Notes: generated by a model from the sequence alone, not told the origin. Shown: positions 13,239 through 42,408, counted from the first letter of the stretch. The stretch is 64,000 nucleotides of DNA from Myxococcota bacterium (GCA_048498275.1 JBEHYH010000001.1:4876-68875), one strand, 5' to 3'. Program-made: numbers and translations.

Positions 13239-13311
13239 TCCTTGATAGCTCAGCTGGTAGAGCAGGCGACTGTTAATCGCCGGGTCGTAGGTTCGAGTCC
13301 TACTCAGGGAG
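13239..13311 (+). tRNA. tRNA-Asn: tRNA-Asn (anticodon GTT)
   Basis: Cloverleaf read by eye. Acceptor TCCTTGA/TCAGGGA (one G-U pair), D-arm AGCTCAGCTGGTAGAGC, anticodon loop CTGTTAA, T-arm GTAGGTTCGAGTCCTAC, discriminator G. CCA not encoded. Confidence 0.9.
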
Positions 13312-14802
13312 CAGAGATTGACGACCCAACGAACCGCTTAACACCGGCGCGTTGGGTCTCTCTTTTTCCGGCTCAGCGCTCTCGTCCCAGAAGCCCTTCG
13401 GCAGCTCGTAGAGCTGGATGAGCGCCTGACCGGCCTTCGGATTGTTCGCGTCGGGTCGCCACTCGACGACGTCGACGACCTCTCGCAAGAGCTGCCGGAG
13501 TTCGAGCGCCGCGTTGGCCTTGCGTGCCGCCGCGAAGAGTTGCGGCAGCCGTTGGTAGCTCTCGGCCACAACCTCCGCGTCCATCATCTTGTGCGTCAGC
13601 GCGTCTCGCTTCGTCTTTAGCTCGAGCAATTCCTCCTGGAGCTTCGCTTGTTCCCCCTCCTTGTCGCGAAGCCGCGCCGACAACGACTTCGCGCCGCCTC
13701 CCTCAGCGATCGAATCCACCAGGCCGTTGATGACTTTCCCAAGCTGCTGCATGGCCGACGTGACCTTCTTCGTCTCCTCATTGATGGCAGTGAGCTGATC
13801 GTCACGACCTTCGTTGGCTTCGCGAACGGCTTCCCTCAAGGCCTTCGCGTCGATGGACAGCTGAGAAATCTGGTCGAGCACAAAGTTCTCGGCGGCAGAC
13901 GCGGGAATGTCCTTCGTCTTGCACGCGACCTGCGCCGTTCGATGCTTGAGGGTGCAGCGGTAATAGAAATGCGCTCCGTTTCTGCCGGTGCCCATGGTTC
14001 TCGTCATCATCGAGCCACAGCTGCCGCAGCGAAGCAGTCCCTCGAGCAACATCACCCTCTCGTTGGAGCCGCGTCGTTTGGGAGGCGAGTCAGTGTTGAT
14101 CGCCAGCTTCGCTCGAACCTTCGCAAAGAGCTGCGCATCGATCAGCGGCGGCCAGTTGCAGTCGATGACTTCACCGCTCTCAAGCCTACGCTTCGCGATG
14201 TAGCCCTCGTCGCGTAACGTGTTCAAAACCGTCTGCGTCGCGAAAGGAGCCTTCTCTCGTTTGATACCCCTCTGCGCCAGGTACTTCGCCACAGCGCGGG
14301 CAGACCCGAGCTCGAGGAATTTCTCGAAGACGTCCTTGCGGAGGATCTCGGCTTTCTTCTCATCGACCAGCAGCGTGGTCTTGTTCGTATCGTGCGCTCG
14401 GTAGCCGAAAGGCACACGCCCACCGAACCAGAGCCCCTGAACCATGCGCGACTGAATCTTCTCTTTCGTCCGCTCCGACGTTCGCTCGCGCTCCAGCTCC
14501 GCGAAGACCAGCGTGATCTTCAACATCGCTCGACCAGTGGCGCTGGCGGTCTCGAATTTGTCGTCGAGCGCGAAGAACTCGACCTCGCGCTCCTCGAAGA
14601 TGCTCCACAGTTCGTAGAAGTCGATCAGGCTGCGTGTGATGCGATCGATCTTCACCACGACCACGGCATCGAGTTTTCCGGCGCGAACATCGGCGAGGAG
14701 TTGCTGAAGCGCCGGCCGATCGGTGTTCTTCCCGCTCTTCCCCTCTTCGCGGTACTCCGCCGCCAGAATCCATTCTCGACTGCCCGTCGCTTTCGCCTGC
14801 AA
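13300..14802 (-). CDS. Large serine recombinase (resolvase domain + recombinase domain + zinc ribbon + coiled coil); N-terminus appears disrupted
   Basis: DRPALQQLL..GKLDAVVVVKIDRITRS, ..FAELERERTSERTK.., GG..PFGYR, and Cys cluster LRCGSCGS...YYRC. The catalytic VRTSRES segment lies upstream of the first usable start (see finding). The stop lies inside tRNA-Asn. Confidence 0.8.
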   Translation of the reverse strand: MQAKATGSREWILAAEYREEGKSGKNTDRPALQQLLADVRAGKLDAVVVVKIDRITRSLIDFYELWSIFEEREVEFFALDDKFETASATGRAMLKITLVFAELERERTSERTKEKIQSRMVQGLWFGGRVPFGYRAHDTNKTTLLVDEKKAEILRKDVFEKFLELGSARAVAKYLAQRGIKREKAPFATQTVLNTLRDEGYIAKRRLESGEVIDCNWPPLIDAQLFAKVRAKLAINTDSPPKRRGSNERVMLLEGLLRCGSCGSMMTRTMGTGRNGAHFYYRCTLKHRTAQVACKTKDIPASAAENFVLDQISQLSIDAKALREAVREANEGRDDQLTAINEETKKVTSAMQQLGKVINGLVDSIAEGGGAKSLSARLRDKEGEQAKLQEELLELKTKRDALTHKMMDAEVVAESYQRLPQLFAAARKANAALELRQLLREVVDVVEWRPDANNPKAGQALIQLYELPKGFWDESAEPEKERPNAPVLSGSLGRQSLLPE

Positions 14803-15166
14803 CGTCTCGTAGTCGATGCGTTGCCCGAAGCGGACGTTCTTCAGCCTGGACTCCCGGCTGGTTCGAACCCTTCTTCATCGTCTTCATTATCGACATCTAC
14901 AGCCGCGTCAGTTTTCTCGCCATCTACGAGCCGAAGAACAAGTCGTCCCAACGCGAGCTTCGCCGACCCAAGACGCTCCTCCGCCGTCGGCCTGAACGTG
15001 GGGCTCGCCGAATTCGGCTTCAACGTCCCGGTCGGCACAATGCCGCCAGTGATCGGAAACGTCGTCTGTGCCGAACGGCCGGGCATACGACGACAAGTAC
15101 CGAGGCCACCAACTGCCGATAGCGGAGCGCTTCGTGCACAAACGAACCGAGCGCTCCGCCGGGGAT

Positions 15167-15460
15167 TCAGTCGTCGGACATTGGATTGTCGATATTTCGT
15201 ACCCTGTTGCGCTTCTCGAAGTGCTCTTCGACGACAGACTGAATAACGGCCAGACGGCGACGCAACACCCTAATGTGCGCGACGCACTCAGCAAGCATCA
15301 CCGTGACATCGCTGAATCCGTCGAGAACCGGAATCGAGGGGAAGCCCTTTATCGACTCCATTGCTCTTGTCAGCGCCGAGTTGGTTCTAAATATCTGCGC
15401 CGTCCACGGATGCATGGGCGACCCATTGTTTTTCTTCTGCGAGGGTTTGCGTGTTGGCAT
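15167..15460 (-). CDS. Hypothetical protein (97 aa)
   Basis: ATG 15460 preceded by GGAGAAAGA. Protein-like composition, unlike the overlapping plus-strand ORF. No recognisable motif. Confidence 0.4.
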   Translation of the reverse strand: MPTRKPSQKKNNGSPMHPWTAQIFRTNSALTRAMESIKGFPSIPVLDGFSDVTVMLAECVAHIRVLRRRLAVIQSVVEEHFEKRNRVRNIDNPMSDD

Positions 15461-15787
15461 TCTTTCTCCAGCGGCGGCCACGAACGGTTCGCGACCTTCA
15501 ATTCCGCCAGCCATAGGTACAGCCCCTCAAAACTCGACAAAGCGGAGCAATCACGCGGCTTCTGGCTACTTCGCTCCGATCGACTCAGAGCTTCCGTGCC
15601 ACGAGGGGTGAGGGTTGGCGTGTATGGAGAAAAAAAAAGACCAGAAGCCCTACGCGCCTCAATCCAATCTGTACCCACCCACTACGTCGCGCGAAATCGC
15701 CTTAGTGGTGCGCAGAGAGACTTCAGGAGTGTCACCAGATCGCTGGGTTACTTACACCCTCCACTACAACGACCCTCACCCCTGGCC

Positions 15788-16909
15788 CTACCGGAGCTTC
15801 ACTTCGCCAATACACCTGACAAACCTCCGACCATGACTTCGCGTCAGTTTAATTCCTGAGAGTCTATGCAGCGCTTTCCCGAAGGAAGTCATGCTGACCG
15901 GTTTCACTTCCCCTCGAAAACCGCTCCGATACCAGTGATACAATCCCTTGCGGCCATAGCGAGTGTTCTTCGACAGGCTGTTTAAAAACTGAATGATGTC
16001 CTTGTACCTGTGTGGAGCAAACCGAGCCGACGGGAACGGGTTCAGACGCTTGGGGCGCGGCGGCACCCATCGCGTTGCCGTTCGGAGATGTTCGCGAACC
16101 CTTTCAACACCGACCTTCATCAAAAAATCATCCGGACCCAATTTCTCACCGACGATCAGCACGGGAGTTGGTGCAAGAAAAACAATCGCACCAGCCGCCT
16201 CCAAAGCAGTGGCGATGAGCGTTTGGCCGCCTCTGACATTCTTGTTAGTAGCGACGTCATTATCCAGCATGACGAAGACTCTGCGTTCCTTCCACGAGAC
16301 GTACTGCTTTAAGACTGGATGAAGCTCGATGCGCTTCTGCTCTCTCTTGAGCGCCGCGTCGTGACCTCCGCCTGTTGAACCGGCAAGACTAATCGACGGA
16401 ATTCCTGCGACGGTCAGTGCCAATGCCTTAACGGGGCCTTCAACAATAACCAGCGGCAGCGTGACATCAGCAGCAACGGTCTCCATCAACATCGGCGGAA
16501 TGAACGGACGAGTGCCGCGACCCGCGGGGTACGCGAATTTCATGCCTTTCATTGGCTGGTCGAGGCGCACACACATGTAATTGTCGCCAGGCACTTCGAA
16601 CCAAATGCCCAACCCGTCCTCGTTGTTGATTCTCCTTTTCCACCCGAGCACCCGCTTGATTTCGTAGGAGTTCAGACTGCGCCATCCGAGTCTCAAAGCG
16701 ATATCGGCGGGCACCCCGCGAGTGGCCAGGTATTCACGATGGTTCCTGTTCAGCGTTGGCGGCGTAGCGAATGGCGCGGACAATGTGGCCGACAACAGCT
16801 GCGTCTCGGGTGGGTTGCGGGCGTCAGTCCGAAGAATGAGGTCTTCGCTGCGGGAGTGGGTTGATTTTTCAAACTGAGGAACGGGCATGAAGTTGTGGGG
16901 GGGGGCCAT
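15788..16909 (-). CDS. Toprim-like (DUF3854-type) protein, putative primase/replication-associated
   Basis: HREYLATRGV..., acidic Toprim-like core LVIVEGPVKALAL and VFVMLDNDVATN, then ..GPDDFL. The start is ambiguous (ATG 16909 or 16888) with a C9 run between the two. Confidence 0.6.
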   Translation of the reverse strand: MAPPHNFMPVPQFEKSTHSRSEDLILRTDARNPPETQLLSATLSAPFATPPTLNRNHREYLATRGVPADIALRLGWRSLNSYEIKRVLGWKRRINNEDGLGIWFEVPGDNYMCVRLDQPMKGMKFAYPAGRGTRPFIPPMLMETVAADVTLPLVIVEGPVKALALTVAGIPSISLAGSTGGGHDAALKREQKRIELHPVLKQYVSWKERRVFVMLDNDVATNKNVRGGQTLIATALEAAGAIVFLAPTPVLIVGEKLGPDDFLMKVGVERVREHLRTATRWVPPRPKRLNPFPSARFAPHRYKDIIQFLNSLSKNTRYGRKGLYHWYRSGFRGEVKPVSMTSFGKALHRLSGIKLTRSHGRRFVRCIGEVKLR

Positions 16910-16975
16910 GAGAAGCCGCCATTACTGGCCGACAACTTCTGGAATACCGGAGCGATCCCTAGCAATTTCCAGTTT

Positions 16976-17710
16976 TCACTCCGCCTCTGGCAAAGCAACC
17001 GAGGAACTGGGCTCTGCAACACGCAGGCGCTTCAAGCTCGCGAGCAGCATCCTCGACGCAACCTTCGCCTTCAACTTCCGCCAAGCGTCTTCGCGATCCT
17101 TCAGTGGAATCCGTCTCGGTGACGGTTTCTCGCTGTTGGCATTCGACTTTCTCGAAGAATTCAACGGCAGATCTTCGCCAGGTAGTCGCTGCCCCACGAG
17201 GACCATCACGGCTTCCATCTGTCGATAGGTCATCTCTCGACCCATCAACTCAATGACTGAGAGCATCGATGTCATCGCCAACTGATGTGCTTCGTCCCAC
17301 CAACGGTCGTCTTCGCCGCGAGGGTTGGTGGCGAGCAACAGCTGCGCCTGCGACATCAACATCTGCTGCTGCGCAGACGCTTCAATGAAGTTAGATAGCT
17401 CGGCAAAGAACTTCAGCGCTCCATTGAGCGACGTGGAGTATTTCTCTGGGATAGCACGGGTGAAGTCAGCCACTGGGGCGGCCTGGTAGCGCTGCTTCGG
17501 AGTTGCTGGCCGCGGCTCGTTACGGAGCCAGTGCTTCACCGTTCCCATGACCTGCGCCATGGTGAGCCCCGCGTGGGTCGCCGCTACCAGTGCCTGAATC
17601 TGCTCGGCGCTGTAACCCTCACCTTCCAGAAACCTGAATGCGTGCTTCTCGTCTTCAAAATGGAAGGCTGCTTTTGCATTGGCGTAGTTCGGCTGCCTGG
17701 GGCTCCCCAT
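16976..17710 (-). CDS. Hypothetical protein (244 aa)
   Basis: ATG 17710 preceded by GGAGGAG. Coherent ORF divergent from the next gene. No recognised domain. Confidence 0.5.
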   Translation of the reverse strand: MGSPRQPNYANAKAAFHFEDEKHAFRFLEGEGYSAEQIQALVAATHAGLTMAQVMGTVKHWLRNEPRPATPKQRYQAAPVADFTRAIPEKYSTSLNGALKFFAELSNFIEASAQQQMLMSQAQLLLATNPRGEDDRWWDEAHQLAMTSMLSVIELMGREMTYRQMEAVMVLVGQRLPGEDLPLNSSRKSNANSEKPSPRRIPLKDREDAWRKLKAKVASRMLLASLKRLRVAEPSSSVALPEAE

Positions 17711-17772
17711 TTTCAGTTCTCCTCCAAACAAAATGCTTCCCACTGGAGATGAGGCAGGTGGACCATTTGACG

Positions 17773-18636
17773 ATGGTCTCGCGCACTGAAGCTCAAAACA
17801 CCGCGTCTCGAACTAACGGAGCTGCTTCTTTTGGCCCGACAAGTCTCGTCGGCAAACAAGCGGCGTCGCTCAACTCGGTGAAGCACGGCCTGGGAAGCAA
17901 GACGCCCCTGCTGTTGCCGGGTGAAGATCCCGATGATTGGGAGAGCTTCATGGGTGAGTGGTTCGCGACGCTCGCTCCGATCTCCATTCCCGAAGGCACC
18001 ATCGTCGCGCAGCTTGGTGACCTCGCATGGAAGTTGGAGCGCCTCGCCCGCATCGAGCACGGCAACGCACTCAAAAAGCTGGAGGAAGCTGTCATGCAAA
18101 CACCAACCGCAAGGACGCTCGTGGCGACACAAAAAGTACGAGTCGCTGTTGATGGTCTGCTCCGTGCCGTCAATGAGAGTCAGCCGCCGACGAGCACCGA
18201 CGGTCTTGAGCCCTTTCTTGATGGACTCGGCGAGCTGTACCACTACGTGAAGGAAATCGAGGGCGTCCCAGCTTCGCTGCTCGCGAAGATGAGCAACGAG
18301 CTGAAGAAGCTCGCTGACTCGAACGACGCAGGCGCGTTGACGTCCGCGTTCCTCGAAATCGGAAAATGCGCTCGAGAACTCGCCAGCTTTCTTGCTTCTG
18401 AAGAAGAGCGTCTGAATGAAGAGCAAAAGACCCAGCGCGAGAGGCTCTCTGCGGAACAGCTCCTGACTCCAGACCCCGAGCAGAGGAAATTCGACCGCTA
18501 CCGGGAGACCATCGAAAAAGCGATGTCGAGAGAGTTTGGACTGCTGAATCAGATGAGAGAACAACGACCAGACGTACCTGCCGGAGCCGGCCAAGACCCG
18601 CAGGAGGTGCGCGTACGGCTGCGACTCGTGAAATAA
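17773..18636 (+). CDS. Hypothetical helical protein with N-terminal N-x-x-K-H-G-L motif
   Basis: ATG 17773 (alternative 17749). N-terminus ..ASRTNGAASFGPTS..GK..SLNSVKHGL resembles a motif I recall from orphan mobile-element proteins. Followed by an intrinsic terminator. Confidence 0.55.
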   Translation: MVSRTEAQNTASRTNGAASFGPTSLVGKQAASLNSVKHGLGSKTPLLLPGEDPDDWESFMGEWFATLAPISIPEGTIVAQLGDLAWKLERLARIEHGNALKKLEEAVMQTPTARTLVATQKVRVAVDGLLRAVNESQPPTSTDGLEPFLDGLGELYHYVKEIEGVPASLLAKMSNELKKLADSNDAGALTSAFLEIGKCARELASFLASEEERLNEEQKTQRERLSAEQLLTPDPEQRKFDRYRETIEKAMSREFGLLNQMREQRPDVPAGAGQDPQEVRVRLRLVK

Positions 18637-18910: not shown

Positions 18911-19915
18911 CTACTGATGACTGAACTCCTGGACCGCAGTTCCGTTGATCACGACGAGTTTCGGAGAAGGGGTTTCCATTGAGAGGTCAGTAGGAATAGT
19001 CCCCTCAGCCAGCCCACGCAGTCCTTCTGTCAAATCCGTGGCAGGAGAACTTGATGAGGCCTGAAGCGAACACCTGCGGCGCACAGATTCGACTCGACGT
19101 CGCACGGCTGAGAGCGTTAACCAGAGGGCATCAATCGCCCCGTAAACATCAGTCAACGCGGTATTGAGGTCGCTATCGAATCCCGTGACAGGCTCGAGCT
19201 CGAGGGGACTCACCAGTCTATTGAGCAACGAGAGCTGAACTTCTTTTACGTCCGCGAAGACACGGCTCAATTCGATGAGTTGTCGAACATTGCCTTTAGG
19301 ATTTGAGGACCCATGCCCGACTTCGCCAAACGACACCACTGGCGGCTCCGAAACCACCGCGTTGCTCAACGTCGAATCATTGGTGGTGGACCCGATGACA
19401 ACGTTCCCGTCGTCCCGAGAGATGGTCTTCTTCGGGTACAACTCCGACTTCAACTGTTTCGGCGAAATCCCCGAATCGGCGATTCGATCCAACCATGCAG
19501 CTGCGGCTTCGTTGGTCATGCCTCGCTTAGAAGCAAGATGCACGAGATGCGCCCGCTCGACGCGACCCTTTGACCTTGAGCTGATGGACTCCAACTGAGA
19601 ACGCGTGAATCTCGCGTTAATCTTGATGTAGCTGTACACCCAGGTCTTCCCACGCTGCAGCTTTGCGCGGATAAACAGAAGCCCCTTCTTCTTGTATTTG
19701 TCTTTGATTTTCTGAAACTCGGCTCCGAGTTCAAAACAAAACAGGAGATGCGCACCTTCGGAGCGAGCAATCAGCCCCTCGATTTCGAGAGCCTTCTCAG
19801 TGAGTTCCGCTTCGGCGACGGCAGTCAGGTTCTTATCTGAGCGCTTCGTCCGTACGGATTGCGACGACGCTCCGACGTTTGAATCCTTTAATTTTACGAC
19901 GGTATTTCGAGCCAT
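18911..19915 (-). CDS. Hypothetical protein (~334 aa)
   Basis: Long ORF of island-like composition. ATG 19915 (MARNTVV...) or an upstream start at 19969. No recognised domain. Confidence 0.5.
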   Translation of the reverse strand: MARNTVVKLKDSNVGASSQSVRTKRSDKNLTAVAEAELTEKALEIEGLIARSEGAHLLFCFELGAEFQKIKDKYKKKGLLFIRAKLQRGKTWVYSYIKINARFTRSQLESISSRSKGRVERAHLVHLASKRGMTNEAAAAWLDRIADSGISPKQLKSELYPKKTISRDDGNVVIGSTTNDSTLSNAVVSEPPVVSFGEVGHGSSNPKGNVRQLIELSRVFADVKEVQLSLLNRLVSPLELEPVTGFDSDLNTALTDVYGAIDALWLTLSAVRRRVESVRRRCSLQASSSSPATDLTEGLRGLAEGTIPTDLSMETPSPKLVVINGTAVQEFSHQ

Positions 19916-20390
19916 TGAGTTCCCGAACTGCGATTGCGAGGTAACTTTCAGGCACACAGATCCCACCAAAATCAGGAACCATGTCTACTGAAAGCCACCT
20001 GAACAAGAGCAACCGCACGGCTCAGGAGCCCAACACCTGCTGATTGCTAAGCCCGATGGGCCAGCAGGTGATCGCTCAACTACAGCGAACCGCCCACGAA
20101 TAAACGAGCGCAGTGTCGTGCCGCAACTAATTTTCCAAACGCCTAGAATTCCTAGAGCACTCGACTCCTACTTGGCCGCCAACAAGGGGACGATTGACAG
20201 CGTCGGACAATTGCGAGGATAAGTCGCGTGCCGCGTCTCATTGCGCGGGACCTCGTTAGACCGATCCATGCTCGGTCAGGCAGTCGAGGCGAAGGGGAAC
20301 ACGCTTCCTCGATGAATGTTTGGTTCTCCGTTCACCCTGCAGTCGGGCTCTCGGAGCATGGATCTGTGCGCTCGACTTGAGGGTTGAACC

Positions 20391-21603: not shown

Positions 21604-21615
21604 CTTGGAAATTGC

Positions 21616-21684: not shown

Positions 21685-21706
21685 CCGCGGAGACGAACAT
21701 GGCCGA

Positions 21707-22184: not shown

Positions 22185-22637
22185 CTACTGCCGTCGGCGA
22201 ATCCTCGGTGGCACAGCGTGAGCAGTGCGTTCCTTGGGCTTCAAGAGTGGGTACGCGGCGAGCGCTTCGACGACGGGGTCTGCAACGGAGCGTAGAACCA
22301 ACTCTTTCAGCAGCTGCTCGAGTTGCTCGCACCGCGCTTCAATCTCAAAAACTCGAGCCTGGTTCTCGTTGTCGATGGCCTTGTGCAGTTTCGCGTGCTC
22401 TTCCTCTGAAGGACACAGCAGCAAATTCTCTGGCTCATTGTTGTGGGGGTCGCGATCTCGATGATGCACGAGCAACCCGTGCGTCAGTCGAACTCCCACT
22501 CTCGTGCTGACCAACAGCCGATGTTCGAGCACCCAGTCATCACCCAGGCGGACTTCCCAGTAGCCAGATTTGTTCTTGCGTCGTTCGCGCCGCGCCGGGT
22601 TGGCCATGCACCGCACCCTAGTTCGAGGGTACGACAT
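22185..22637 (-). CDS. HNH endonuclease
   Basis: ..LLVHHRDRDPHNNEPENLLLC...EEHAKLH (H-N-H core). Alternative start at ATG 22607. Confidence 0.8.
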   Translation of the reverse strand: MSYPRTRVRCMANPARRERRKNKSGYWEVRLGDDWVLEHRLLVSTRVGVRLTHGLLVHHRDRDPHNNEPENLLLCPSEEEHAKLHKAIDNENQARVFEIEARCEQLEQLLKELVLRSVADPVVEALAAYPLLKPKERTAHAVPPRIRRRQ

Positions 22638-22807
22638 GTAAGCCGGGCAGACAGAAACGACTGAGTTTCGTCGACAACGGAGGCTTCAATCCGTTCGACG
22701 GCATCGGCCTTCGCCGCTTGTGCGTTTGCGAGACCGCCGTCTTCCACATCATCATCAACATCAACTGCGTCGCGTCGACGCAAAGGCACTCGTCTGTGAA
22801 TGCTGCC

Positions 22808-24266: not shown

Positions 24267-24325
24267 AGCGCAACTCTACCGAGTTGAGGCTGGGCGTGGT
24301 CGTCCACTCATTTCCAGGAACATCC

Positions 24326-30944: not shown

Positions 30945-31043
30945 CGGCAAACGAGGCGGCAAAGACGTTCCGTGTCCTCCTCGGGCGAAGTCAACAAGAG
31001 AGAAGCTCATTCGGTTTACCCTCCCAGATTCGGCGCTCACGCT

Positions 31044-31628: not shown

Positions 31629-31745
31629 ACCTGGCGGTCAAAGTGTCGCTTGGAGTATAAACCACGACCGACGATCCCACGAAGCTCACCAAACATGCCT
31701 TCTCCGTCTGAAATGCCAGCGCACACACATTCAAAAAAGGACGCG

Positions 31746-32756: not shown

Positions 32757-32778
32757 GCGCACAGAAGGGGCGGGGACG

Positions 32779-34671: not shown

Positions 34672-35105
34672 CACTCGAATCCACGCGCATAATCAAAACC
34701 CTCAGCGCGAACGATGTCGGCGAAACAGGCTCACATCAAGCCGGCATTCTGGTACCGAAATCTCCAGAGATCCTCAGCTATTTCCCCAAGCTAGACCATC
34801 ACTTAAAGAATCCACGAAATACGCTCACTTTCTTTGAGCCGAATGCCATTACAAAATGGGATTTCGAATTCATCTACTACAACAACAAGTTTTTTGATGG
34901 AACCCGGAACGAGTATCGACTCACCGGAATGACAAAGTATCTCCGGGCAACAAACGCAAAGCGCGACGATGCTTTGGAATTCTATCGGGACGCTGATGGT
35001 CGCCGAACCATATGCCTGCGGCGTGCGGAAGCACAGACACACGACGACGACGGGACATTACGAATCAGTGGCGGTTGGAAAATCATTCGACTCTCCGGGA
35101 GATGA
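34668..35105 (+). CDS. Stand-alone B3-like DNA-binding protein (EcoRII N-terminal effector-domain-like)
   Basis: ATGA overlap on both sides. KTLSANDVGETGSHQAGILVPK resembles the EcoRII-N/B3 pseudobarrel signature. 145 aa. Confidence 0.55.
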   Translation: MTLESTRIIKTLSANDVGETGSHQAGILVPKSPEILSYFPKLDHHLKNPRNTLTFFEPNAITKWDFEFIYYNNKFFDGTRNEYRLTGMTKYLRATNAKRDDALEFYRDADGRRTICLRRAEAQTHDDDGTLRISGGWKIIRLSGR

Positions 35106-36739
35106 AATTGGCCAAAAAAGCGACCGACAAATACGTAGAATGTGCTCCTGATCCGGAACGAGTCGTCGAGGGCTTGCGGGACACAGGATATCAGCTGGAA
35201 ACGGCAGTGGCCGATATCGTCGACAACAGCATCGCTGCGACAGCAAAGCGTATCGACGTGAACATGAACATGGACCCTAAAGGGAACGTGCTTGTGTCTA
35301 TTGCCGACAATGGAATCGGCATGAGTCGAGACGGACTAATCAATGCGCTGAGATACGGATCCAAAAGACGCGCAGACCCATCCAGTCTAGGAAAATTTGG
35401 TCTCGGATTAAAAACCGCCTCGACGGCTTTCTCACGTCGAATAGTACTCATTTCGCGCGAAAAGAAATCTGGAGCGGTGCTTCGCGCGGTCTGGGACTTA
35501 GATGTCGTCGCGGATAAGCACGACTGGTTAATAGAGATAGACGACGCCAGGAAAGAAGAGATTTTAATTCTCGATCAGACTGCCGAAGGCGGCACAGGCA
35601 CGGTCGTCATATGGGATCGCGTTGATCGACTCCTCTCTGAATACAAAAACCAAAACGGCGTTCCCGCCCGAAAAGCCCTGACGCGTCACGTCGATGGACT
35701 GCGACAGCATCTGGCTATGACTTATCAGCGATTCTTGGACCCCAAAGACAAGCGAGCTCCAACAATCAAACTGCGATTGCAAGGCGAAGCAGTTGAACCA
35801 TGGGACCCGTTTTGTTTATCGGAAACGAAGGAGCCGATTGAAAACAAAACAATCCCTCTGGAGCTACCCGACGGCACAAAAACATCATTTTCGATTAGGG
35901 CTTTTGTGTTGCCTCGAAAAGAGGACTTCACCGATCAGGATGCAGCAAAGCTCGCGCGGATACAAAACGATATGCAAGGTATATATGTCTACCGTGAGAA
36001 TCGAATGATCCACGGCCCAGACTGGATGGACATGTACCGAAAAGAACCTCACGTCACATTGTGTCGCGTCGAGCTTTCATTCGACCACAAATCCGACGAA
36101 GCGTTCCAGGTCGATATCAAGAAATCGCGAATTCTACTCGCGAACGAGCTCTACGAATGGCTCCGAGACAAATTCCTCCCTGGCCCACGACGCGAGGCTG
36201 AATCTCGGTCTCGAAAAGGCCAAGCGGCCAGAGCCAGTGGGCTTGGAGCGCTGCTACACACCGCATCAAACAATGCAATTCACAGCAAAGCGGATGCTCT
36301 GCAAACTGCCAAGTTGCAAGAGTACAGCGCTAAGACTGGTGAGGCCACGATCCAGAATCGCGGCGGCAAAGCGAAAATAAAAATCAAATTGGTTGATTCC
36401 GTAACCCCCGGTCAGGTTCATGTTCAAACTGTCCCTGAAATCATAAACGGGCTACTTTTCGAGCCCGCCTACATCAAGGGGGCGAACGGCGAGAGCAATC
36501 AAGGCGTCCAAATTGCCAGCAGTCATCCTTACTACCATAAGGTTTACCTTCCCAATCGCTCGTCTGGCGTCACCATTCAGGGCTTGGATTCCTTACTTTG
36601 GGCTTTGGGTGCTGCCGAACTCGGATGTGTCAGTGACGAAACCAAACGAAAGTTTGAAGAAATGCGTTTCGAGGTCTCGAGACTACTACGACAGCTCGTC
36701 GATGACATGCCCGACCCGATCGATGACGCCGAGCAATGA
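35102..36739 (+). CDS. GHKL-superfamily ATPase (HATPase_c_3 / MORC-like)
   Basis: Bergerat-fold motifs: N-box AVADIVDNSIAA, G1 ADNGIGMS, G2 LGKFGLGLKTAS. 545 aa with a long C-terminal region. Confidence 0.8.
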   Translation: MKLAKKATDKYVECAPDPERVVEGLRDTGYQLETAVADIVDNSIAATAKRIDVNMNMDPKGNVLVSIADNGIGMSRDGLINALRYGSKRRADPSSLGKFGLGLKTASTAFSRRIVLISREKKSGAVLRAVWDLDVVADKHDWLIEIDDARKEEILILDQTAEGGTGTVVIWDRVDRLLSEYKNQNGVPARKALTRHVDGLRQHLAMTYQRFLDPKDKRAPTIKLRLQGEAVEPWDPFCLSETKEPIENKTIPLELPDGTKTSFSIRAFVLPRKEDFTDQDAAKLARIQNDMQGIYVYRENRMIHGPDWMDMYRKEPHVTLCRVELSFDHKSDEAFQVDIKKSRILLANELYEWLRDKFLPGPRREAESRSRKGQAARASGLGALLHTASNNAIHSKADALQTAKLQEYSAKTGEATIQNRGGKAKIKIKLVDSVTPGQVHVQTVPEIINGLLFEPAYIKGANGESNQGVQIASSHPYYHKVYLPNRSSGVTIQGLDSLLWALGAAELGCVSDETKRKFEEMRFEVSRLLRQLVDDMPDPIDDAEQ

Positions 36740-37650
36740 TTGACGAAAGAGCACTAGAGCAGCGCCTGTGCGGCCGTTTTGGTTTGGCGATCAGCGCCGG
36801 TCGCCGTGGCCACGGCCTAGATGAGTGTGTGTACTTTCGAGTGGTCGGTCACGGTATCGACAAACCAAATGGTTTCGCAATCGAACTGACCGGAGAATGG
36901 CGCTCACTTGAAGCCAAGTTCGTTCCGGATTCGTTTGCACGATCGCTGATGCAGACTGTCGCAGCATCTACCGAACTGCGACGTAGAGAATTTCTCTCTC
37001 TGTCAGATGCTTTTCAGAGCACGGGGATTCGCAGTTCAGTACGGATTGACGACCGTCCGATTAACGCGAGAGATACCTTGACGCAGCCTTGGTCGAAGTT
37101 CCAACTCGCTTGCCATCGACTTACCGACAAATCGGATGAACAGCGCGATGCGGAGGAACTTGGCGGAGCATGCTTGGCACTAGTTCTTTCGCTACTCCCG
37201 ATCGAGGAGTTGGTTTCACTGCCGTCGGAAGAGTTTCTCGAGCTTGAGCCGGGCACCAACCAAATAGACGGGTTGCCAGAGGGAGCGGTAACCAAAATAA
37301 CTGTTAATCGGTATGAACGCCGACCAGCCAATCGCGCGGCAGCTATCGCGGCCCACGGGACGCAGTGTGCAGCGTGCGGTTTTGACTTCTTTAGATTCTA
37401 CGGAGATCTGGGAGACGGCTTTATTGAAATACACCATCGAACGCCAGTATCGCTGATAGGGCCCAACTACATCATCGACCCAGTACGCGACTTAGTGCCG
37501 TTGTGCGCGAACTGCCACCAGATGGTGCATCGAAGATCTCCGCCGGTTGAACCAGAACAATTGAGAGAACTCTTGCTCGCGCGTCAAAAGTTCCCCAAGA
37601 CAACCGCATCTGGCAGTCCCGATGACGAGACCGCAGGGCGTCTGGAGTAG
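36736..37650 (+). CDS. HNH endonuclease with uncharacterised N-terminal domain
   Basis: ATGA overlap with the upstream stop. C-terminal ..NRYERR...R..A....G..C.ACGFDF...FIEIHHRTPVS...DLVPLCANCHQMVHR (HNH, McrA-like). Confidence 0.8.
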   Translation: MIDERALEQRLCGRFGLAISAGRRGHGLDECVYFRVVGHGIDKPNGFAIELTGEWRSLEAKFVPDSFARSLMQTVAASTELRRREFLSLSDAFQSTGIRSSVRIDDRPINARDTLTQPWSKFQLACHRLTDKSDEQRDAEELGGACLALVLSLLPIEELVSLPSEEFLELEPGTNQIDGLPEGAVTKITVNRYERRPANRAAAIAAHGTQCAACGFDFFRFYGDLGDGFIEIHHRTPVSLIGPNYIIDPVRDLVPLCANCHQMVHRRSPPVEPEQLRELLLARQKFPKTTASGSPDDETAGRLE

Positions 37651-37776: not shown

Positions 37777-39582
37777 CTACCTATGCTGTTCTTGATGAAG
37801 TTCAATACCAAGGAACCGCAGTTCGCCATCGAGGTTAAACCGAGGCGTCCACACCGCATCAACAGAACCTACTGGCACCACATCGGGATCCGTTGCGCTG
37901 AACACGAACTGAACAGGATCTTCCAATCTGCTCGACATTTTGTGGAACTGCGCAACATACGCACTTAAGTCTGCTGAACTCAGTTCGTGCTGACGGGGGG
38001 CATCGAGAATGAGCAGCTTCGGGTGGTTGCCATTCATGGCAAGTGAGGCTTCGACCAACGCTGCGTGGTAAGACAGGATAAATCGCGTGCGAGTACTGCC
38101 GCTTGGAGACGACTTGGAGGTGAAGGGCTCTCCATTCACAACAAGCCGCAATTCCTCATCGAACTCGATCTCCGTCGGCAAATTTGGCGTATTGAGTACG
38201 CCGCACCATTTCACAAAGCTAGTCGCCAGATGCTGCCGAGCATCGAGTAGTCGGCTCGTTTCCCTACGAGCTCCGCGTGTTGGGCGAAGTTCATCGACCG
38301 AATCTCTCGCTCGCGCTTCTTTGGTAAGAAGCACTTCAAGTTGCTTCTGCTCACGTGCAATTCGCTCGAGGCGATCGAGACGAACGTGGATATCGGACAA
38401 TTCTCGGGTCGCAAGTTGTAGAAAACTGACGATTCCACCACCTCCGCGCTGCTCAAGCTCTTGGCTCTTCGCCTCGCTTGCTTCATGAACAAGGCGCTCT
38501 GCTGCGGCTAGTTGGTCGGTTAACACAACAAGCACTCTTTCCACCTCACCGCTACCTACTTCGAAGTCCTTAAGCTGGTCTTTTAGATAGAGAACCCGCC
38601 TGCCAAACGAGTCTTCATTCCTGAAGAACTGGCAGGATTGGTTTCCACAGAGCTTTCGGAAAATGTCAGCGGCAACTTCGTTCTGCTCTAGAGCACTGAG
38701 CTCGGTGCCCATCTCGGCGCGGTAGTCACCCAGTTGTTTTTTTCGTTTCTTGGCACTCGCCAACTTGAGAGCAAGCTCATCTCTCTGTTGCGCACTTTCA
38801 CGGACGCGAACGTCAAGCGCTGATTCTGACTGAAGCATCGTCTGAATAGTAGATTGCGCACGGGCGATCTCAGGCTCCAGCACGGCCTTACGCTCTTGCA
38901 GGCGCTCGACGGCATCGTCTCCACGATCCTCGCCCAGCTCACGCCTGAGCGCCTCAAGACCTCGGCGCTTGAATGCGATCTGCTCTTGTATGCCAGCCTG
39001 CTCCGTCTTCGCCTCTCTGTATTTACCCTTGTCTACTGGTCGGTATTTCGCAGGAAGATCCAATAACCAACGAAGAACTTCCTCGCGTTGATCTCTCACG
39101 AATTTGTGGGTTTCGAACGGCACATATTCGGAAGCCCAACCAACATCCTGATCGACCAAGAACATTGGTCCCACAACGCTCATGTACGGAGGAACTTGCT
39201 CGCCCGATACCGATGAAAGCGTTCGTAGCGCGATACCAATCTTTGGTAGCAGCCATGACGAAAAGTCACTTTCATTGGAAAATGAAACAACATGACCCTT
39301 TTGGTCGCTCACAGCAACGACGAGACCCGATTCAAACTGACGTACAATTCTGTACTCTGTTGCGTCCGCCACGATTTCAACGACGACAGCGCTGCACTTC
39401 TCGCGAACCAGCGGTGGAAGTTCGACCGGATGACCAAGACCGTAGACAAGCGCCTTCAGGAGCGGCGTCTTCCCAGCACCGTTTCGTCCAAGAAGGAGCG
39501 TGCTGGCCCTACCAAACGACAATGAGCCGCTAGTCCAACCGACTTCACCACGAGGTAGCAACTCCAGCGAACGCAGCGTCAT
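37777..39582 (-). CDS. SMC/Rad50-like ABC ATPase (ABC-3C-type ATPase component)
   Basis: N-terminal Walker A LLLGRNGAGKT, ~300-aa coiled coil, C-terminal signature-like SPSGST and Walker B KLLILDAP. 4-nt overlap with the upstream gene. Confidence 0.8.
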   Translation of the reverse strand: MTLRSLELLPRGEVGWTSGSLSFGRASTLLLGRNGAGKTPLLKALVYGLGHPVELPPLVREKCSAVVVEIVADATEYRIVRQFESGLVVAVSDQKGHVVSFSNESDFSSWLLPKIGIALRTLSSVSGEQVPPYMSVVGPMFLVDQDVGWASEYVPFETHKFVRDQREEVLRWLLDLPAKYRPVDKGKYREAKTEQAGIQEQIAFKRRGLEALRRELGEDRGDDAVERLQERKAVLEPEIARAQSTIQTMLQSESALDVRVRESAQQRDELALKLASAKKRKKQLGDYRAEMGTELSALEQNEVAADIFRKLCGNQSCQFFRNEDSFGRRVLYLKDQLKDFEVGSGEVERVLVVLTDQLAAAERLVHEASEAKSQELEQRGGGGIVSFLQLATRELSDIHVRLDRLERIAREQKQLEVLLTKEARARDSVDELRPTRGARRETSRLLDARQHLATSFVKWCGVLNTPNLPTEIEFDEELRLVVNGEPFTSKSSPSGSTRTRFILSYHAALVEASLAMNGNHPKLLILDAPRQHELSSADLSAYVAQFHKMSSRLEDPVQFVFSATDPDVVPVGSVDAVWTPRFNLDGELRFLGIELHQEQHR

Positions 39583-40058
39583 AAGAGCTCCAAGCCACCT
39601 TGGTCTACTGCGCGATAGGCTCGCTCAAGCTCACGAACAAGGACCCCAGATTCATCAGCAGAGAGAGTCAGCTTCCTCACAAGCGTTTTCCCTGAGTCAG
39701 CGATATAGATGGTTCTCGTTGGCGCTTCTTTCACGATGGCCAGACCTACGTTCTCCAGGAACACCAGTGCCTCCGCGCAACGCCTCCGCAGAGGAACAGA
39801 CCATTGAATGTCAGTGCGTACAAACCGAAGGTCCGCGAACTTTCTCATGAGAGTCCCAAGCGCCCAAGTTGCGACGTCGGAGGTCGGTACCCCGTTACGA
39901 CGAGCCTTGGCGATCACCAAGATTGTCAACGCGAGCAGGGGAGCATGGAACAGCCCTTCAACACCAGCACTTGCAGCTCGCGACAGCCCCTGCATGTTCA
40001 GCCGAAGTTGAACGTTTGCAGTTGTAGCCTCCGCAGTAATCTCTTCGAGAGTTCTCAC
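39579..40058 (-). CDS. Small helical protein, position of the ABC-3C middle component
   Basis: 159 aa with no catalytic motif. 4-nt overlaps with both neighbours, implying translational coupling. Confidence 0.6.
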   Translation of the reverse strand: MRTLEEITAEATTANVQLRLNMQGLSRAASAGVEGLFHAPLLALTILVIAKARRNGVPTSDVATWALGTLMRKFADLRFVRTDIQWSVPLRRRCAEALVFLENVGLAIVKEAPTRTIYIADSGKTLVRKLTLSADESGVLVRELERAYRAVDQGGLELL

Positions 40059-41254
40059 GATTCAGCCTCAACGGCGACAGCCAGCATTAGGCCAAAGACT
40101 AAATCCTTCGTGAGTGGCTCGCTCGACGTTAATATTGTGCTGTACTTGGTGGCGAGATTGGAAGCCTCCTGTCCGAGTCCATCGAACGATAGATGACCAT
40201 CGGAATGAACCTTCAGTGCACTTGCGCACGAATTTTTAAGCGATATCTGGTCGAGGGCGTTGACAACATGTCGTTGGCGCACCCACCACGCATCCCATGC
40301 CGTCTTGAGTTGACATAGCTCCGGTATGACCGATTCCGAAACCTTACTTCTCCTGCAGAGGCGATGGAGCCGAGAGAGCGCTACGACGCCTTCTCTTCCC
40401 GACACCTGTAACTCACGATAGCCTTCGGAAGAGAGGCTCAAGATGCGAAGCACATCTTCGAGAACAAGCCCCTTTGAACTCCTCAGTTCACTATTCGACG
40501 CCGGCAGCTCCGGAAGTTTCCGGTGCGACTTCTCGCGAACGACCGCAACAAGCTCTGCGCCAATCTTCTGCGTCTCTGACTGAGTGAGATCAACCTCCGA
40601 CATCTGATAGATACGCCCGCCAAGAAGAACGCGACAATCGTTTATGTTCGCAATTTTTCCGAACGCATCTTGCACATAGAGCCGCCTGAGAAATTCGAAT
40701 ATGTGGTCCGACTTTATCGACGGAAACGCTGCCGGTAGCACAGCGACCAGTTCATTGAACGAGTCCGCTGGAGCGCCAACAAGTGCGACAGAATCACTGA
40801 CAGATCGCACCGCATCCAGCAAATCAGTGAACTCTTTCGTCACGCCGGCATCGGTAACGAACACGAAGTGTTCACATCGCGCACCGAACTTTTGTACGTG
40901 ATCAAAAAGACGCCCAAAAATTGAGTCAGCGTCAGCTATCGGTGCCGCTACGGCACTCTTGGACTTCCCCTTTCGAGTTCTGACGCCGAAAAACTCGTTG
41001 ACCCTCCAAGGCCCTTGCGCCCCACCCCGGGTCTTAACTTGGTGAAAACGATAGGCCGATACCCCAGCGGACTCGATCACGTAGTCGTCGTGCCATTCAC
41101 AATAGACGCACGCGACCTTGGTATCATCTAGAACTTCAAGCGCCCCAGCTGCCGCCTGATGATACTGGAATTCGAACGCGTTCCCCGTACCTGCACCCAC
41201 CTGCTCACGCGGCTCAACCTCGTGAAGACCTACCCCTCCCTCTTGGTTGGTCAC
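40055..41254 (-). CDS. DUF4297/Cap4-nuclease-like PD-(D/E)XK effector with helical C-terminal domain (ABC-3C effector position)
   Basis: GTG 41254 after GGAG. GNAFEFQYHQ...VYCEWHDDYVIE...YRFHQVKT matches my recollection of the DUF4297 dsDNA-nuclease signature. Confidence 0.65.
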   Translation of the reverse strand: MTNQEGGVGLHEVEPREQVGAGTGNAFEFQYHQAAAGALEVLDDTKVACVYCEWHDDYVIESAGVSAYRFHQVKTRGGAQGPWRVNEFFGVRTRKGKSKSAVAAPIADADSIFGRLFDHVQKFGARCEHFVFVTDAGVTKEFTDLLDAVRSVSDSVALVGAPADSFNELVAVLPAAFPSIKSDHIFEFLRRLYVQDAFGKIANINDCRVLLGGRIYQMSEVDLTQSETQKIGAELVAVVREKSHRKLPELPASNSELRSSKGLVLEDVLRILSLSSEGYRELQVSGREGVVALSRLHRLCRRSKVSESVIPELCQLKTAWDAWWVRQRHVVNALDQISLKNSCASALKVHSDGHLSFDGLGQEASNLATKYSTILTSSEPLTKDLVFGLMLAVAVEAES

Positions 41255-41352
41255 GCGACCCGCTCCATGTCGACGGTCTTTCTCAACTGAGTGCTCGTTG
41301 AGGCTACTTTCTATACAAGTTCACTGAAAGTACCGCGCTGTATCCGCTTCGC

Positions 41353-41805
41353 CTAGAGGGGAGCAACTTCACGATCGTGAAGCCGCAGCGGCGGCAATGA
41401 CGCCTCCAGTCGTTTGAATGCCGACTGCTTCAGCTTCTGGGTGTTCATCCGAGAAATCGCCAGCAGCCTCCGCAGTGACAGCGCCCGGAGCCGCCCTGCG
41501 TCGGTCTCGCGCTCAACGACGAGCAATGCTCTCACAGGGAGCCGACGCACGACGGTGACGTAGTGACAAACCTCAATACGGCTGACGCCGAACTGCTTAC
41601 CCACCGTGGCGTACGACGCACCCGGCACATTCAGCGCCTTTTCATATCGTCTCGCTCGCTCAATCGGGTTCGGCGGCGGCGTCAGCGATCGACGATGACG
41701 CTCGCTCTCGTGTTCCAATCCGAGAAGCAACCAACTCCACTGCATCATCGCTTGGAAGGTCATCCGTCGCGCAACGGTTCGTGGAGCGTCTATATTGGGG
41801 AGCAA
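41353..41805 (-). CDS. HTH protein (ParB/KorB-type HTH-like), unknown function
   Basis: ..IERARRYEKAL...GASYATVGKQFGVSRIEVCHYVTVVRRLP resembles the ParB-family HTH segment. Start uncertain. Confidence 0.45.
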   Translation of the reverse strand: MLPNIDAPRTVARRMTFQAMMQWSWLLLGLEHESERHRRSLTPPPNPIERARRYEKALNVPGASYATVGKQFGVSRIEVCHYVTVVRRLPVRALLVVERETDAGRLRALSLRRLLAISRMNTQKLKQSAFKRLEASLPPLRLHDREVAPL

Positions 41806-41856
41806 GCGATGAAAGCCTCGGTTCTGCCGGGGCTTTTTCGTTGCGGGTCGTGGACT

Positions 41857-42408
41857 TCAGCACGCTCCACCATGCGGCGATTCACGCGACGACGCACGCC
41901 CGCGCCAGTACTTGATGGCCCGCGACAGAGGCCGGTCAGTCGGTACGGCTGCAATTGCATCCTCTGGCCAGTCTGGTCCAGCCCAGGCGGCTTTCTCGAC
42001 CGCTTCGAGAAACATCAAGAACGCGAGAATGGCGTGAATCTGCGCGTCGGTGAAGTCGCGCAGCCGGTCTTTGCCGCGAGCGCTCAGTTTGCCCCCGGGC
42101 GGTGATAGCTCGGCAATGACGCTATCGGGGAAGCAGTCGAGGCGCGTTTTCGCCTCCATCGACCGCAGCATCATGGCCGGAAGGTAGTAGCGAAAGCCGG
42201 CCGCCGTGAGCAGCGCTGGGCTGGGATTTCCGCTCAGGTCAGCGACGCTCACGTCAGGCCACCGCTTGCCGATGAATCGCCCGATGGTCTCTTTGCACTC
42301 GCTGCAATGGTCATTGCGCAGTTCATGGTCACTGGGAGGTTCTCCGACCGGAAACGCTCCCTCGATCGCCTCAACCGCCGCGCGTCTCAATGTTTCTAGC
42401 CTGCTCAT
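41857..42408 (-). CDS. Hypothetical protein (183 aa)
   Basis: Clean ORF with an ATG start. HCSEC motif. No recognised domain. Confidence 0.5.
   Translation of the reverse strand: MSRLETLRRAAVEAIEGAFPVGEPPSDHELRNDHCSECKETIGRFIGKRWPDVSVADLSGNPSPALLTAAGFRYYLPAMMLRSMEAKTRLDCFPDSVIAELSPPGGKLSARGKDRLRDFTDAQIHAILAFLMFLEAVEKAAWAGPDWPEDAIAAVPTDRPLSRAIKYWRGRASSRESPHGGAC

What the first reader, a model, noticed from the sequence alone, without database searches (positions are those of the whole stretch)
13239..42408. ~29-kb island at tRNA-Asn that uses a serine rather than tyrosine recombinase and lacks structural or transfer genes
Right after an intact tRNA-Asn(GTT), the composition drops visibly: A/T-rich runs appear and third codon positions are no longer G/C-saturated. 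Gene content also switches to a recombinase, a Toprim protein, HNH, phage-type recombination genes, an XRE switch and defence operons. Host-like composition returns around 42400-43100. The recombinase stop (13300-13302) and its last four codons (..LLPE) lie inside the tRNA 3' acceptor segment, so the element appears to supply the 3' end of the tRNA. tRNA-targeting islands typically encode tyrosine integrases, so a large serine recombinase here is less usual. I saw no capsid, terminase, tail, relaxase or T4SS genes. It is therefore a satellite-like or decayed element acting mainly as a carrier of defence cargo.
Basis: partly seen in the sequence, partly recalled or inferred. Interest (0 to 1): 0.6.

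Follow-up and report, generated by a model that had tools for sequence, protein, structure and literature searches.

The report
Dead tRNA-Asn island, serine integrase
A 28.5-kb foreign island carrying anti-phage defence genes sits at the only tRNA-Asn gene of a myxobacterial genome; its serine integrase is broken here, but it belongs to a widespread group of serine integrases that always insert at the end of tRNA-Asn, a target type the literature assigns to tyrosine integrases.

Summary
An intact tRNA-Asn(GTT) lies at 13239-13312. GC and GC3 drop after it. A large serine recombinase (LSR) gene ends ..LLPE* inside the tRNA.

I add four points:
1. The right end is mapped to 41777-41803, so the island is about 28.5 kb. 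There an LSR-type P arm (GTTCG-N17-GGAGC) abuts a terminator. The same architecture bounds related elements in G368 (13.4 kb, 21-bp direct repeat), G202 and G010.
2. The LSR is a pseudogene. An 83-bp deletion at 14826|14825 removes the catalytic-serine segment and shifts the frame, so the island cannot move by its own enzyme.
3. The LSR belongs to a clade in which at least 17 loci (7 genomes, 10 metagenome contigs) have tRNA-Asn overlapping the gene's 3' end. No member has a stop codon of its own. GTTCG lies 5 bp closer to the centre in the tRNA T-loop (B arm) than in the P and P' arms, as the published LSR att model predicts.
4. The cargo is an intact Lamassu system, a Vsr-Dcm-SNF2-EcoRII_N-GHKL-HNH operon and a MoxR-VWA pair. 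No capsid, terminase, relaxase or T4SS gene was detected.

The element supplies only the last 5-7 nt of the tRNA and a new terminator. The 'XRE switch' was not confirmed. This specimen is decayed. The tRNA-targeting LSR clade is the interesting part.

The parts
13239..13312 (+). tRNA-Asn(GTT), the only tRNA-Asn gene of the genome; host target (B arm of attL)
   Evidence: ARAGORN. Only copy in the genome. Sequence almost invariant in 12 genus relatives, with or without the element.
13291..13334 (+). attL: GTTCG (tRNA T-loop) - N12 - GGAGC - N17 - CGAAC, a 44-bp span; crossover core GGGAGCA at 13307-13313
   Evidence: The 44-bp span is conserved in 13 of 17 related loci and is 43 bp in two more. 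The core is shared with attR.
13323..13369 (+). Element-encoded hairpin terminator for the tRNA, embedded antisense in the recombinase C-terminal codons
   Evidence: Fold -30.8 kcal/mol, z -4.59. Compensatory stem changes relative to G010.
13300..14887 (-). Large serine recombinase pseudogene. True ATG at 14887. An 83-bp deletion at 14826|14825 removes the catalytic Ser segment and shifts the frame. The remaining open frame is 13300-14802.
   Evidence: Pfam Resolvase matched only from profile position 27. Homologs are 542-592 aa with YARVST. tblastn shows two frames. DNA alignment to the intact L058 copy.
15788..16909 (-). DUF3854 (Toprim-like) protein, candidate replication function
   Evidence: Pfam PF12965, E 7.9e-14.
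17638..18636 (+). Conserved backbone protein of unknown function, all-helical; homolog present in the intact G368 element
   Evidence: tblastx to L054. 7705 relatives, no Pfam family. AF2 pLDDT 85.5, helical, no PDB match.
18911..19969 (-). Unknown 352-aa protein; language-model look-alikes are mostly phage hypothetical proteins (lead only)
   Evidence: No Pfam, PHROG or NCBIfam hit.
22185..22637 (-). HNH_3 endonuclease
   Evidence: Pfam and PHROG HNH families.
22718..23677 (+). DUF6744 protein
   Evidence: Pfam PF20529, E 6.5e-30.
24284..26724 (+). bpMoxR AAA+ ATPase (24284-25468) and VWA protein (25465-26724); host-like GC3
   Evidence: Pfam. GC3 0.82-0.84.
26743..28511 (+). Rad52-like annealase (26743-27711) and PD-(D/E)XK exonuclease (27708-28511): backbone recombination module shared with the G368 element
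   Evidence: Pfam. 45-64% aa identity to L054.
30180..30944 (+). Collagen-repeat protein; the only structural-like hit (PHROG tail-fibre families, largely through the Gly-X-Y repeats)
   Evidence: Pfam Collagen. phrog_5073, E 2.8e-34.
30972..37650 (+). Methylation-linked defence operon: Vsr, Dcm (DrmMII-like), SNF2 helicase (ZorD/DpdE-like), EcoRII-N domain protein, GHKL ATPase (MzaB-like), HNH nuclease
   Evidence: Pfam. PADLOC. GC3 0.54-0.56 (Vsr 0.68).
37777..41254 (-). Lamassu system: LmuA (Cap4-nuclease type, 40055-41254), LmuC (39579-40058), LmuB (37777-39582)
   Evidence: PADLOC full-length hits: LmuB E 1.8e-118, LmuC 2e-20, LmuA 8.3e-74.
41353..41805 (-). attR-adjacent HTH protein (probable start ATG 41763). 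The frame is open and in phase with the recombinase C-terminus across the core.
   Evidence: 40% identity to the YdaS-like protein next to attR in G368. 51% identity to the G010 copy. Homolog next to attR in G202.
41777..41803 (+). attR P arm plus core: GTTCG-N17-GGAGC
   Evidence: Pattern search: 0.42 expected per window by chance. Same architecture in G368, G202 and G010.
41812..41842 (+). Hairpin terminator right of the core (B' arm by the att model). Identical in G010, absent from 21 other genus members, so the boundary is uncertain by 40 bp.
   Evidence: Fold -27.4 kcal/mol, z -3.45. Pattern search. Homology with G010 ends at 41842.

Best explanation
The region is an immobilised 28.5-kb integrative island. 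It runs from the crossover at 13307-13313 to the one at 41797-41803. It was inserted at the extreme 3' end of the host's only tRNA-Asn gene by a large serine recombinase.

Inferred integration mechanism:
- The enzyme recognises an attB whose left half-site is the tRNA T-arm and acceptor end, with GTTCG of the T-loop 12 nt from GGAGC.
- The attP has the form GTTCG-N17-GGAGC-N17-CGAAC.
- Strand exchange occurs within GGAGC(A/C)A.
- Integration keeps the tRNA intact. It replaces the tRNA trailer with an element-encoded terminator that lies antisense inside the recombinase C-terminal codons.
- The recombinase gene has no stop codon of its own. In the integrated state it ends at an antisense stop inside the tRNA.

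Shown for this copy:
- An 83-bp deletion has removed the catalytic serine segment of the recombinase.
- attL and attR are still recognisable, so the island could move only with a related enzyme supplied in trans.

Backbone and cargo:
- The backbone comprises the LSR, a Toprim-like protein, a conserved helical protein, a Rad52-like annealase with a PD-(D/E)XK exonuclease, and an HTH gene next to attR. This backbone is shared with small elements of the same family that also lack capsid and conjugation genes.
- The low-GC right third is defence cargo: Lamassu and a Dcm/Vsr-linked multi-enzyme operon. By HMM coverage these look intact.
For: Island status:
- Left-flank synteny up to the tRNA holds across the genus, while the downstream DNA differs in every relative.
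- GC and GC3 break at the tRNA.

LSR clade and tRNA-Asn:
- Seven genomes in three families and ten metagenome contigs have tRNA-Asn convergent with the LSR 3' end.
- In 15 loci the ORF stop lies 13-42 nt inside the tRNA, and the GTTCG..CGAAC span is 43-44 bp.
- The conserved protein tail WLPxxDSNxGxxD is the antisense reading of the tRNA.

att sites:
- G368 has a 21-bp direct repeat bounding a 13.4-kb element.
- P arms with GTTCG-N17-GGAGC followed by a terminator are found in the window, G202 and G010.
- The chance expectation for this pattern is 0.42 per 64 kb on both strands.
- The 5-bp shift of the motif between the B and P arms matches the published LSR attB/attP model (PMC3783163).

Pseudogene.

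Cargo.

Backbone shared with G368.

No other LSR of this family was found in the assembly at E <= 1e-60.
Against: - No empty attB was found in a close relative, so the crossover position is inferred from att architecture and from one 21-bp repeat in another genus.
- The terminator right of the core should be host DNA. It is nevertheless 31/31 identical in G010 and absent from 21 other genus members. This is unexpected for a host-derived B' arm.
- The B' arms carry no recognisable CGAAC motif.
- The assembly is an 86%-complete MAG in 698 contigs. An assembly error at the 83-bp deletion, or an intact helper LSR on missing DNA, cannot be excluded.
- No recombination activity has been shown for any member of the clade.
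Confidence: 0.8

Rival explanations
1. It is a decayed prophage. A temperate phage with a serine integrase integrated at tRNA-Asn and later lost its capsid, terminase and tail genes. The recombination module, HNH genes and a tail-fibre-like collagen protein are what is left.
For: - Rad52-like annealase plus exonuclease, HNH genes and MoxR/VWA are common in phages.
- The collagen-repeat protein hits PHROG tail-fibre families.
- Look-alikes of the 352-aa protein are mostly viral.
Against: - No capsid, portal, terminase, tail or lysis gene was found by Pfam, PHROGs or NCBIfam.
- The intact element of G368, bounded by a direct repeat, is only 13.4 kb. It carries a DUF3987 primase/helicase-like gene, Rad52, an exonuclease and DUF932, but no structural gene.
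- No relative of this LSR was found in 2.9 million IMG/VR viral contigs.
- The closest phage integrases are below 30% identity.
- The tail-fibre hits rest largely on Gly-X-Y repeats.
Confidence: 0.12
2. The recombinase and the tRNA are neighbours for reasons other than integration. The LSR could be a vertically inherited or resolvase-type gene, and the island could be a composite of unrelated insertions at a generally variable locus.
For: - The region downstream of tRNA-Asn is variable in all genus relatives.
- LSR identity between G000 and G010 (64%) is similar to that of flanking host proteins.
- The island has three compositional blocks.
Against: - The LSR is absent at this site in at least 9 genus relatives.
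- The same LSR-tRNA-Asn overlap recurs across three families and in metagenomes at 47-63% identity.
- A 21-bp repeat bounds the G368 element.
- Homologous HTH genes sit at the far end next to a P-arm motif in four elements.
Confidence: 0.05

Closest known systems
Large serine integrases of phages and ICEs (A118/LI, Bxb1, phiC31, TP901-1, SPbeta SprA, phi105 Int)
   Same: - Domain set Resolvase + Recombinase + Zn-ribbon.
- Short att core.
- Dyad-symmetric attP of about 49 bp and attB of about 39 bp.
- Outer motif shifted 5 bp inward in the attB half-site, as in the LI integrase model (PMC3783163).
   Different: - Sequence identity to phage LSRs is below 30%.
- The target is the 3' end of a tRNA gene. 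Known LSR targets are protein-coding genes or intergenic sites. Hudson et al. state that serine-family integrases are not known to target tDNAs (PMC4383910). The Durrant et al. LSR survey does not mention tRNA.
- The int ORF has no stop of its own and ends inside the tRNA.
tRNA-targeting genomic islands with tyrosine integrases (Islander/TIGER type; P4-like and Mx8-like integrases)
   Same: - The island abuts a tRNA gene and restores it.
- The integrase gene lies next to the tRNA.
- The cargo consists of accessory and defence genes.
   Different: - The recombinase family is different.
- There is no long tRNA-fragment repeat at the far end: the core is 7 bp here and 6-21 bp in relatives.
- The crossover is at the acceptor/CCA end, not in the anticodon or T-loop.
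Integration-dependent gene truncation in cluster G mycobacteriophages (BPs, Brujita; from my own knowledge, Broussard et al. 2013, not checked here)
   Same: attP lies inside an open reading frame, so the integrated and excised forms encode different protein C-termini.
   Different: - In those phages a tyrosine integrase is used and it is the repressor gene that is cut.
- Here the recombinase ORF itself runs across attP into an HTH gene.
- No functional evidence exists here.
Defence islands carrying Lamassu and methylation-linked systems
   Same: - Complete LmuA/LmuC/LmuB with full-length PADLOC matches.
- A Dcm/Vsr-linked operon with SNF2, GHKL and HNH proteins.
- The related G010 island carries a Gabija-like pair instead.
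   Different: The six-gene Dcm operon matches no single PADLOC system. Its function as one unit is inferred from gene order only.

Membership tests
Large serine recombinase (serine integrase) | N-terminal Resolvase catalytic domain with the nucleophile serine | tested here: not met
   The window copy lacks the YARVST segment because of an 83-bp deletion and frameshift. Homologs have it. The window gene is therefore a pseudogene of this family.
Large serine recombinase (serine integrase) | Recombinase domain and zinc-ribbon domain C-terminal to the catalytic domain | tested here: met
   PF07508 E 1.4e-10 and PF13408 E 1.5e-13.
Large serine recombinase (serine integrase) | Short att sites with dyad symmetry, and a ZD motif 5 bp closer to the centre in attB than in attP | tested here: met
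   GTTCG-N12-GGAGC in the B arm versus GTTCG-N17-GGAGC in the P arm and GGAGC-N17-CGAAC in the P' arm, in the window, G368 and G202. The model is from PMC3783163. Binding was not tested.
Large serine recombinase (serine integrase) | Catalyses attP x attB recombination | not testable with these tools
Integrative genomic island | Present at a conserved site in some relatives and absent in others | tested here: met
   The left flank plus tRNA is conserved in the genus. The LSR is present at the site in G000 and G010 only, among about 11 relatives with readable downstream DNA.
Integrative genomic island | Deviating base composition | tested here: met
Integrative genomic island | Empty attB in a close relative that matches the joined flanks | tested here: inconclusive
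   The right flank is not syntenic with tRNA-Asn in any relative searched.
Prophage | Capsid, portal, terminase and tail genes | tested here: not met
   None found by Pfam, PHROGs or NCBIfam. Only a collagen-repeat protein hits tail-fibre PHROGs. Only one of the unknown proteins was folded: the conserved 332-aa protein at 17638-18636, which is all-helical.
ICE / IME | Relaxase, coupling protein, T4SS | tested here: not met
   No such Pfam or NCBIfam hit in any ORF tested. oriT cannot be tested with these tools.
Phage satellite (PICI/P4-like) | Integrase, replication module, regulator, and genes that hijack helper packaging | tested here: inconclusive
   The first three are present in the family: LSR, DUF3854 or DUF3987, and an HTH gene. 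No packaging-related gene was recognised, and no helper is known.
Lamassu defence system | LmuA effector, LmuB SMC-like ATPase, LmuC | tested here: met
   PADLOC: LmuB residues 1-592 of a 588-position model, LmuC 4-151 of 159, LmuA 10-398 of 388. Cap4_nuclease domain.

The most novel reading that the evidence does not exclude
The island is a dead member of an undescribed clade of large serine integrases that use the 3' end of tRNA-Asn as attB. The universal T-loop GTTCG would serve as the zinc-ribbon-domain motif of the B half-site. The integrase ORF is open across attP. In the excised circle it would therefore read in frame into the HTH gene that ends up next to attR. This would give an Int-HTH fusion about 135-150 aa longer. 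Integration would cut the ORF, terminate Int at an antisense stop in the tRNA, and release the HTH gene as a separate unit. That would give the element a built-in readout of its integrated or excised state, perhaps controlling directionality.
Probability: 0.35. Interest if true: 0.75.

Novelty: new variant of a known kind. Interest (0 to 1): 0.6.

Why it matters
Why the clade matters:
- Reference work on tRNA-borne islands states that only tyrosine integrases are known to target tRNA genes (PMC4383910). Because of this, the Islander tool restricts itself to tyrosine integrases.
- A coherent serine-integrase clade with a fixed tRNA-Asn attB would mean that such islands are being missed or mis-bounded.
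- It would also show how a dimer-symmetric LSR site can be built on the intrinsic symmetry of a tRNA 3' end.
- Serine integrases are prized genome-engineering tools. An attB inside a nearly universal bacterial tRNA sequence could be of practical use.
- The open-ended int ORF suggests a possible integration-state switch.

Why this specimen matters less: for the genome in hand the result is more ordinary. It is a fixed defence island with an inactivated integrase.

Tried and rejected
1. I looked for a tRNA-fragment direct repeat at the far end, as for tyrosine-type islands. None was found in the window or the genome. The shared core is only 7 bp.

2. I tried to define an empty site by synteny:
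   - 15-18 kb downstream of tRNA-Asn in nine genus relatives shares nothing with the window's right flank or with the rest of G000.
   - The right flank maps elsewhere in relatives.
   - The G368 right flank is a multicopy gene, and its best ortholog has no adjacent tRNA.

3. That frame is the out-of-frame reading of the leader MKTMKKGSNQ.., and the real motif is deleted.

4. I searched for fused Int-HTH proteins:
   - None was found among longer proteins.
   - The 710- and 670-aa family members P0021 and P0035 have unrelated extensions.

5. I searched for hidden structural genes:
   - PHROGs and NCBIfam gave nothing for the unknown ORFs.
   - The fold of the conserved 332-aa protein is a helical bundle with no PDB match.

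6. The IMG/VR scan found no relatives.

7. The genome-contig scan with a single protein returned only the query's own locus.

9. I did not try read mapping for excised circles.


Full report
**Observation**

ARAGORN finds one tRNA in the window, tRNA-Asn(GTT) at 13239-13312 on the + strand. It is the only tRNA-Asn among 48 tRNAs in the 6.37-Mb, 698-contig assembly, which has 65.8% GC.

GC is 0.64-0.67 up to 13 kb. It falls to 0.50-0.61 between 14 and 42 kb and returns to about 0.65 from 42 kb on.

GC3 separates three blocks:
- 13.3-24.3 kb: 0.59-0.81.
- 24.3-28.5 kb: 0.82-0.84, which is host-like.
- 31.6-41.3 kb: 0.53-0.56.
- Flanking host genes: 0.77-0.85.

The minus-strand ORF 13300-14802 carries Resolvase, Recombinase and Zn_ribbon_recom domains. 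It ends ..SLLPE with TAG at 13300-13302, inside the tRNA.

**Host and site**

A relative that carries the same kind of element is titled 'uncultured Archangium sp.', so the host is a myxobacterium.

The left flank plus the tRNA is syntenic in the whole genus, with DNA identity about 70%. The DNA downstream of the tRNA is different in every relative examined. None of it matches the window's right flank or anything else in G000. No empty site could be aligned.

The tRNA itself is nearly invariant whether or not the element is present. Only the trailers differ.

**The recombinase is broken**

- Pfam matches the Resolvase profile only from position 27.
- The G010 homolog is 553 aa and 64% identical. 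It also ends ..LPE in tRNA-Asn and has a complete N-terminus with YARVST.
- Twenty-one homologs of 542-592 aa all carry this motif.
- The window encodes the leader MKTMKKGSNQPGVQAEERPLR in another frame, starting at ATG 14887. The sequence QRIDYET.. follows in the frame of the long ORF.
- A DNA alignment with the intact metagenomic copy L058 shows an 83-bp deletion between short TTCG repeats, with its junction at 14826|14825. It removes the codons for VGAYARVSTTNQ...SRIR and shifts the frame.
- No second LSR of this family is present in the assembly at E <= 1e-60.

The island is therefore fixed unless a helper enzyme acts in trans.

**A tRNA-Asn-specific LSR clade**

- A profile of the family found close members in seven genomes of three families of the order. 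All seven have tRNA-Asn(GTT) convergent with and overlapping the gene's 3' end.
- Ten of fourteen metagenome loci with enough sequence show the same arrangement, down to 32-37% identity.
- In 15 loci the ORF has no stop before the tRNA. It ends 42 nt inside the tRNA (TAA opposite the anticodon loop) or 13-15 nt inside (TAG). The conserved protein tail WLPxxDSNxGxxD is simply the antisense reading of the tRNA.
- The distance from the T-loop GTTCG to an inverted CGAAC in the element is 44 bp in 13 loci and 43 bp in two.
- Most element-bearing tRNAs carry an encoded CCA that element-free relatives of the window lack.

**The right end**

In G368 a 21-bp direct repeat bounds a 13.4-kb element. The repeat comprises the last 11 nt of the tRNA plus 10 nt of trailer, and the far copy is followed by a terminator. 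Left of that copy lies GTTCG, 17 nt before GGAGC. In the tRNA the same motif lies 12 nt before GGAGC.

The pattern GTTCG-N17-GGAGC occurs in the window at 41777-41803, followed by a terminator hairpin. By chance 0.42 such sites are expected per window. This one lies at the compositional boundary and on the correct strand.

The same architecture is found 5.2 kb from the tRNA in G202, next to a truncated LSR. It is also found on another contig of G010.

In all four elements the gene just inside this site is a homologous HTH protein.

The deduced sites are:
- attP: GTTCG-N17-GGAGC-N17-CGAAC, 49 bp.
- attL: 44 bp.

The 5-bp inward shift of the outer motif in the B half-site is what the LI integrase model predicts for attB versus attP (PMC3783163).

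The identity between attL and attR in the window is only GGGAGCA, which explains why repeat searches failed. The island is thus about 28.5 kb. The element contributes only the last few nucleotides of the tRNA and a new terminator.

One oddity remains. The 31-nt terminator right of the core is identical in G010 and absent from 21 other genus members. The boundary could therefore lie 40 bp further right.

**Open reading frame across attP**

The LSR has no stop of its own. In the window, G368 and G202 the HTH gene's frame is open from the core and in phase with the LSR's ..WLP codons. A Met lies about 14-16 codons downstream of the core in each. In the excised circle the LSR ORF would therefore continue into the HTH gene.

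This is a deduction from sequence only. No fused protein was found in the protein database.

**Content**

Backbone:
- DUF3854 (Toprim-like).
- A conserved all-helical protein with thousands of uncharacterised relatives.
- HNH and DUF6744.
- MoxR-VWA.
- Rad52-like annealase plus PD-(D/E)XK exonuclease.

The annealase, the exonuclease and the helical protein are shared with the G368 element. That element also has a DUF3987 protein, DUF932 and a YdaS-like HTH gene, but no structural or transfer genes.

Cargo:
- A complete Lamassu system.
- A Vsr-Dcm-SNF2-EcoRII_N-GHKL-HNH operon.
- For comparison, the G010 island carries a Gabija-like pair instead.

The only structural-like hit is a collagen-repeat protein.

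**Literature**

- Hudson et al. state that only tyrosine-family integrases are known to target tDNAs (PMC4383910).
- Surveys of mycobacterial prophages and of proviruses report RNA targets for tyrosine integrases.
- The large LSR survey by Durrant et al. does not mention tRNA.
- I found no paper describing this clade. The TIGER database could not be queried.

**Verdict**

This is a real island with a serine-type integrase. This copy is dead. Its lasting interest is the tRNA-Asn-targeting LSR clade it reveals.

Noticed in passing
L015:2127-5362 (G010 island at tRNA-Asn): The related island in G010 carries an AAA_15/AAA_21 ATPase (618 aa) followed by a UvrD-like helicase (503 aa). This is a Gabija-like pair, in place of the window's defence cargo.
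   Followed up: partly
window 41812-41842 and L096:1470-1500: A 31-nt hairpin terminator is identical in G000 and G010 and absent from 21 other genus members, although the att model places it in host DNA. The 8 nt between the core and the hairpin differ between the two genomes.
   Followed up: partly
window 17638-18636 (+): This protein belongs to a very large uncharacterised family: 7705 representatives at E <= 0.001 and no Pfam model. The conserved N-terminal motif is NGxxSxGPxxxxGKxxSSxNxxxHGL. The confident AF2 model is an all-helical bundle with no PDB match.
   Followed up: partly
L029 (G288:C3), L042 (G300:C17), L047 (G078:C89): More distant myxobacterial LSRs also sit next to tRNA genes. 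One is about 110 bp from tRNA-Asp (preceded by tRNA-Val). Others are next to tRNA-Asn. Targeting of tRNA genes by LSRs may therefore be broader in this phylum.
   Followed up: no
L056 (G351) and L057 (G202): Two genomes keep only the C-terminal ~270 aa of the LSR next to tRNA-Asn. In G202 the whole remnant between attL and attR is 5.2 kb. Decay of these elements in place appears common.
   Followed up: partly
window 30180-30944 (+): A collagen-repeat protein lies between the backbone and the defence operons. Its strong PHROG tail-fibre hits are probably driven by the Gly-X-Y repeats.
   Followed up: partly
window 47727-48016: A stretch of about 290 bp in the right flank matches dozens to hundreds of places in every relative's genome at about 70% identity. 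It is presumably a repeated protein domain of a multigene family.
   Followed up: no
window 34668-35105 / 35012-36739: The EcoRII-N domain ORF overlaps the listed start of the GHKL ATPase ORF by 94 nt. The true start of the ATPase is probably further downstream.
   Followed up: no
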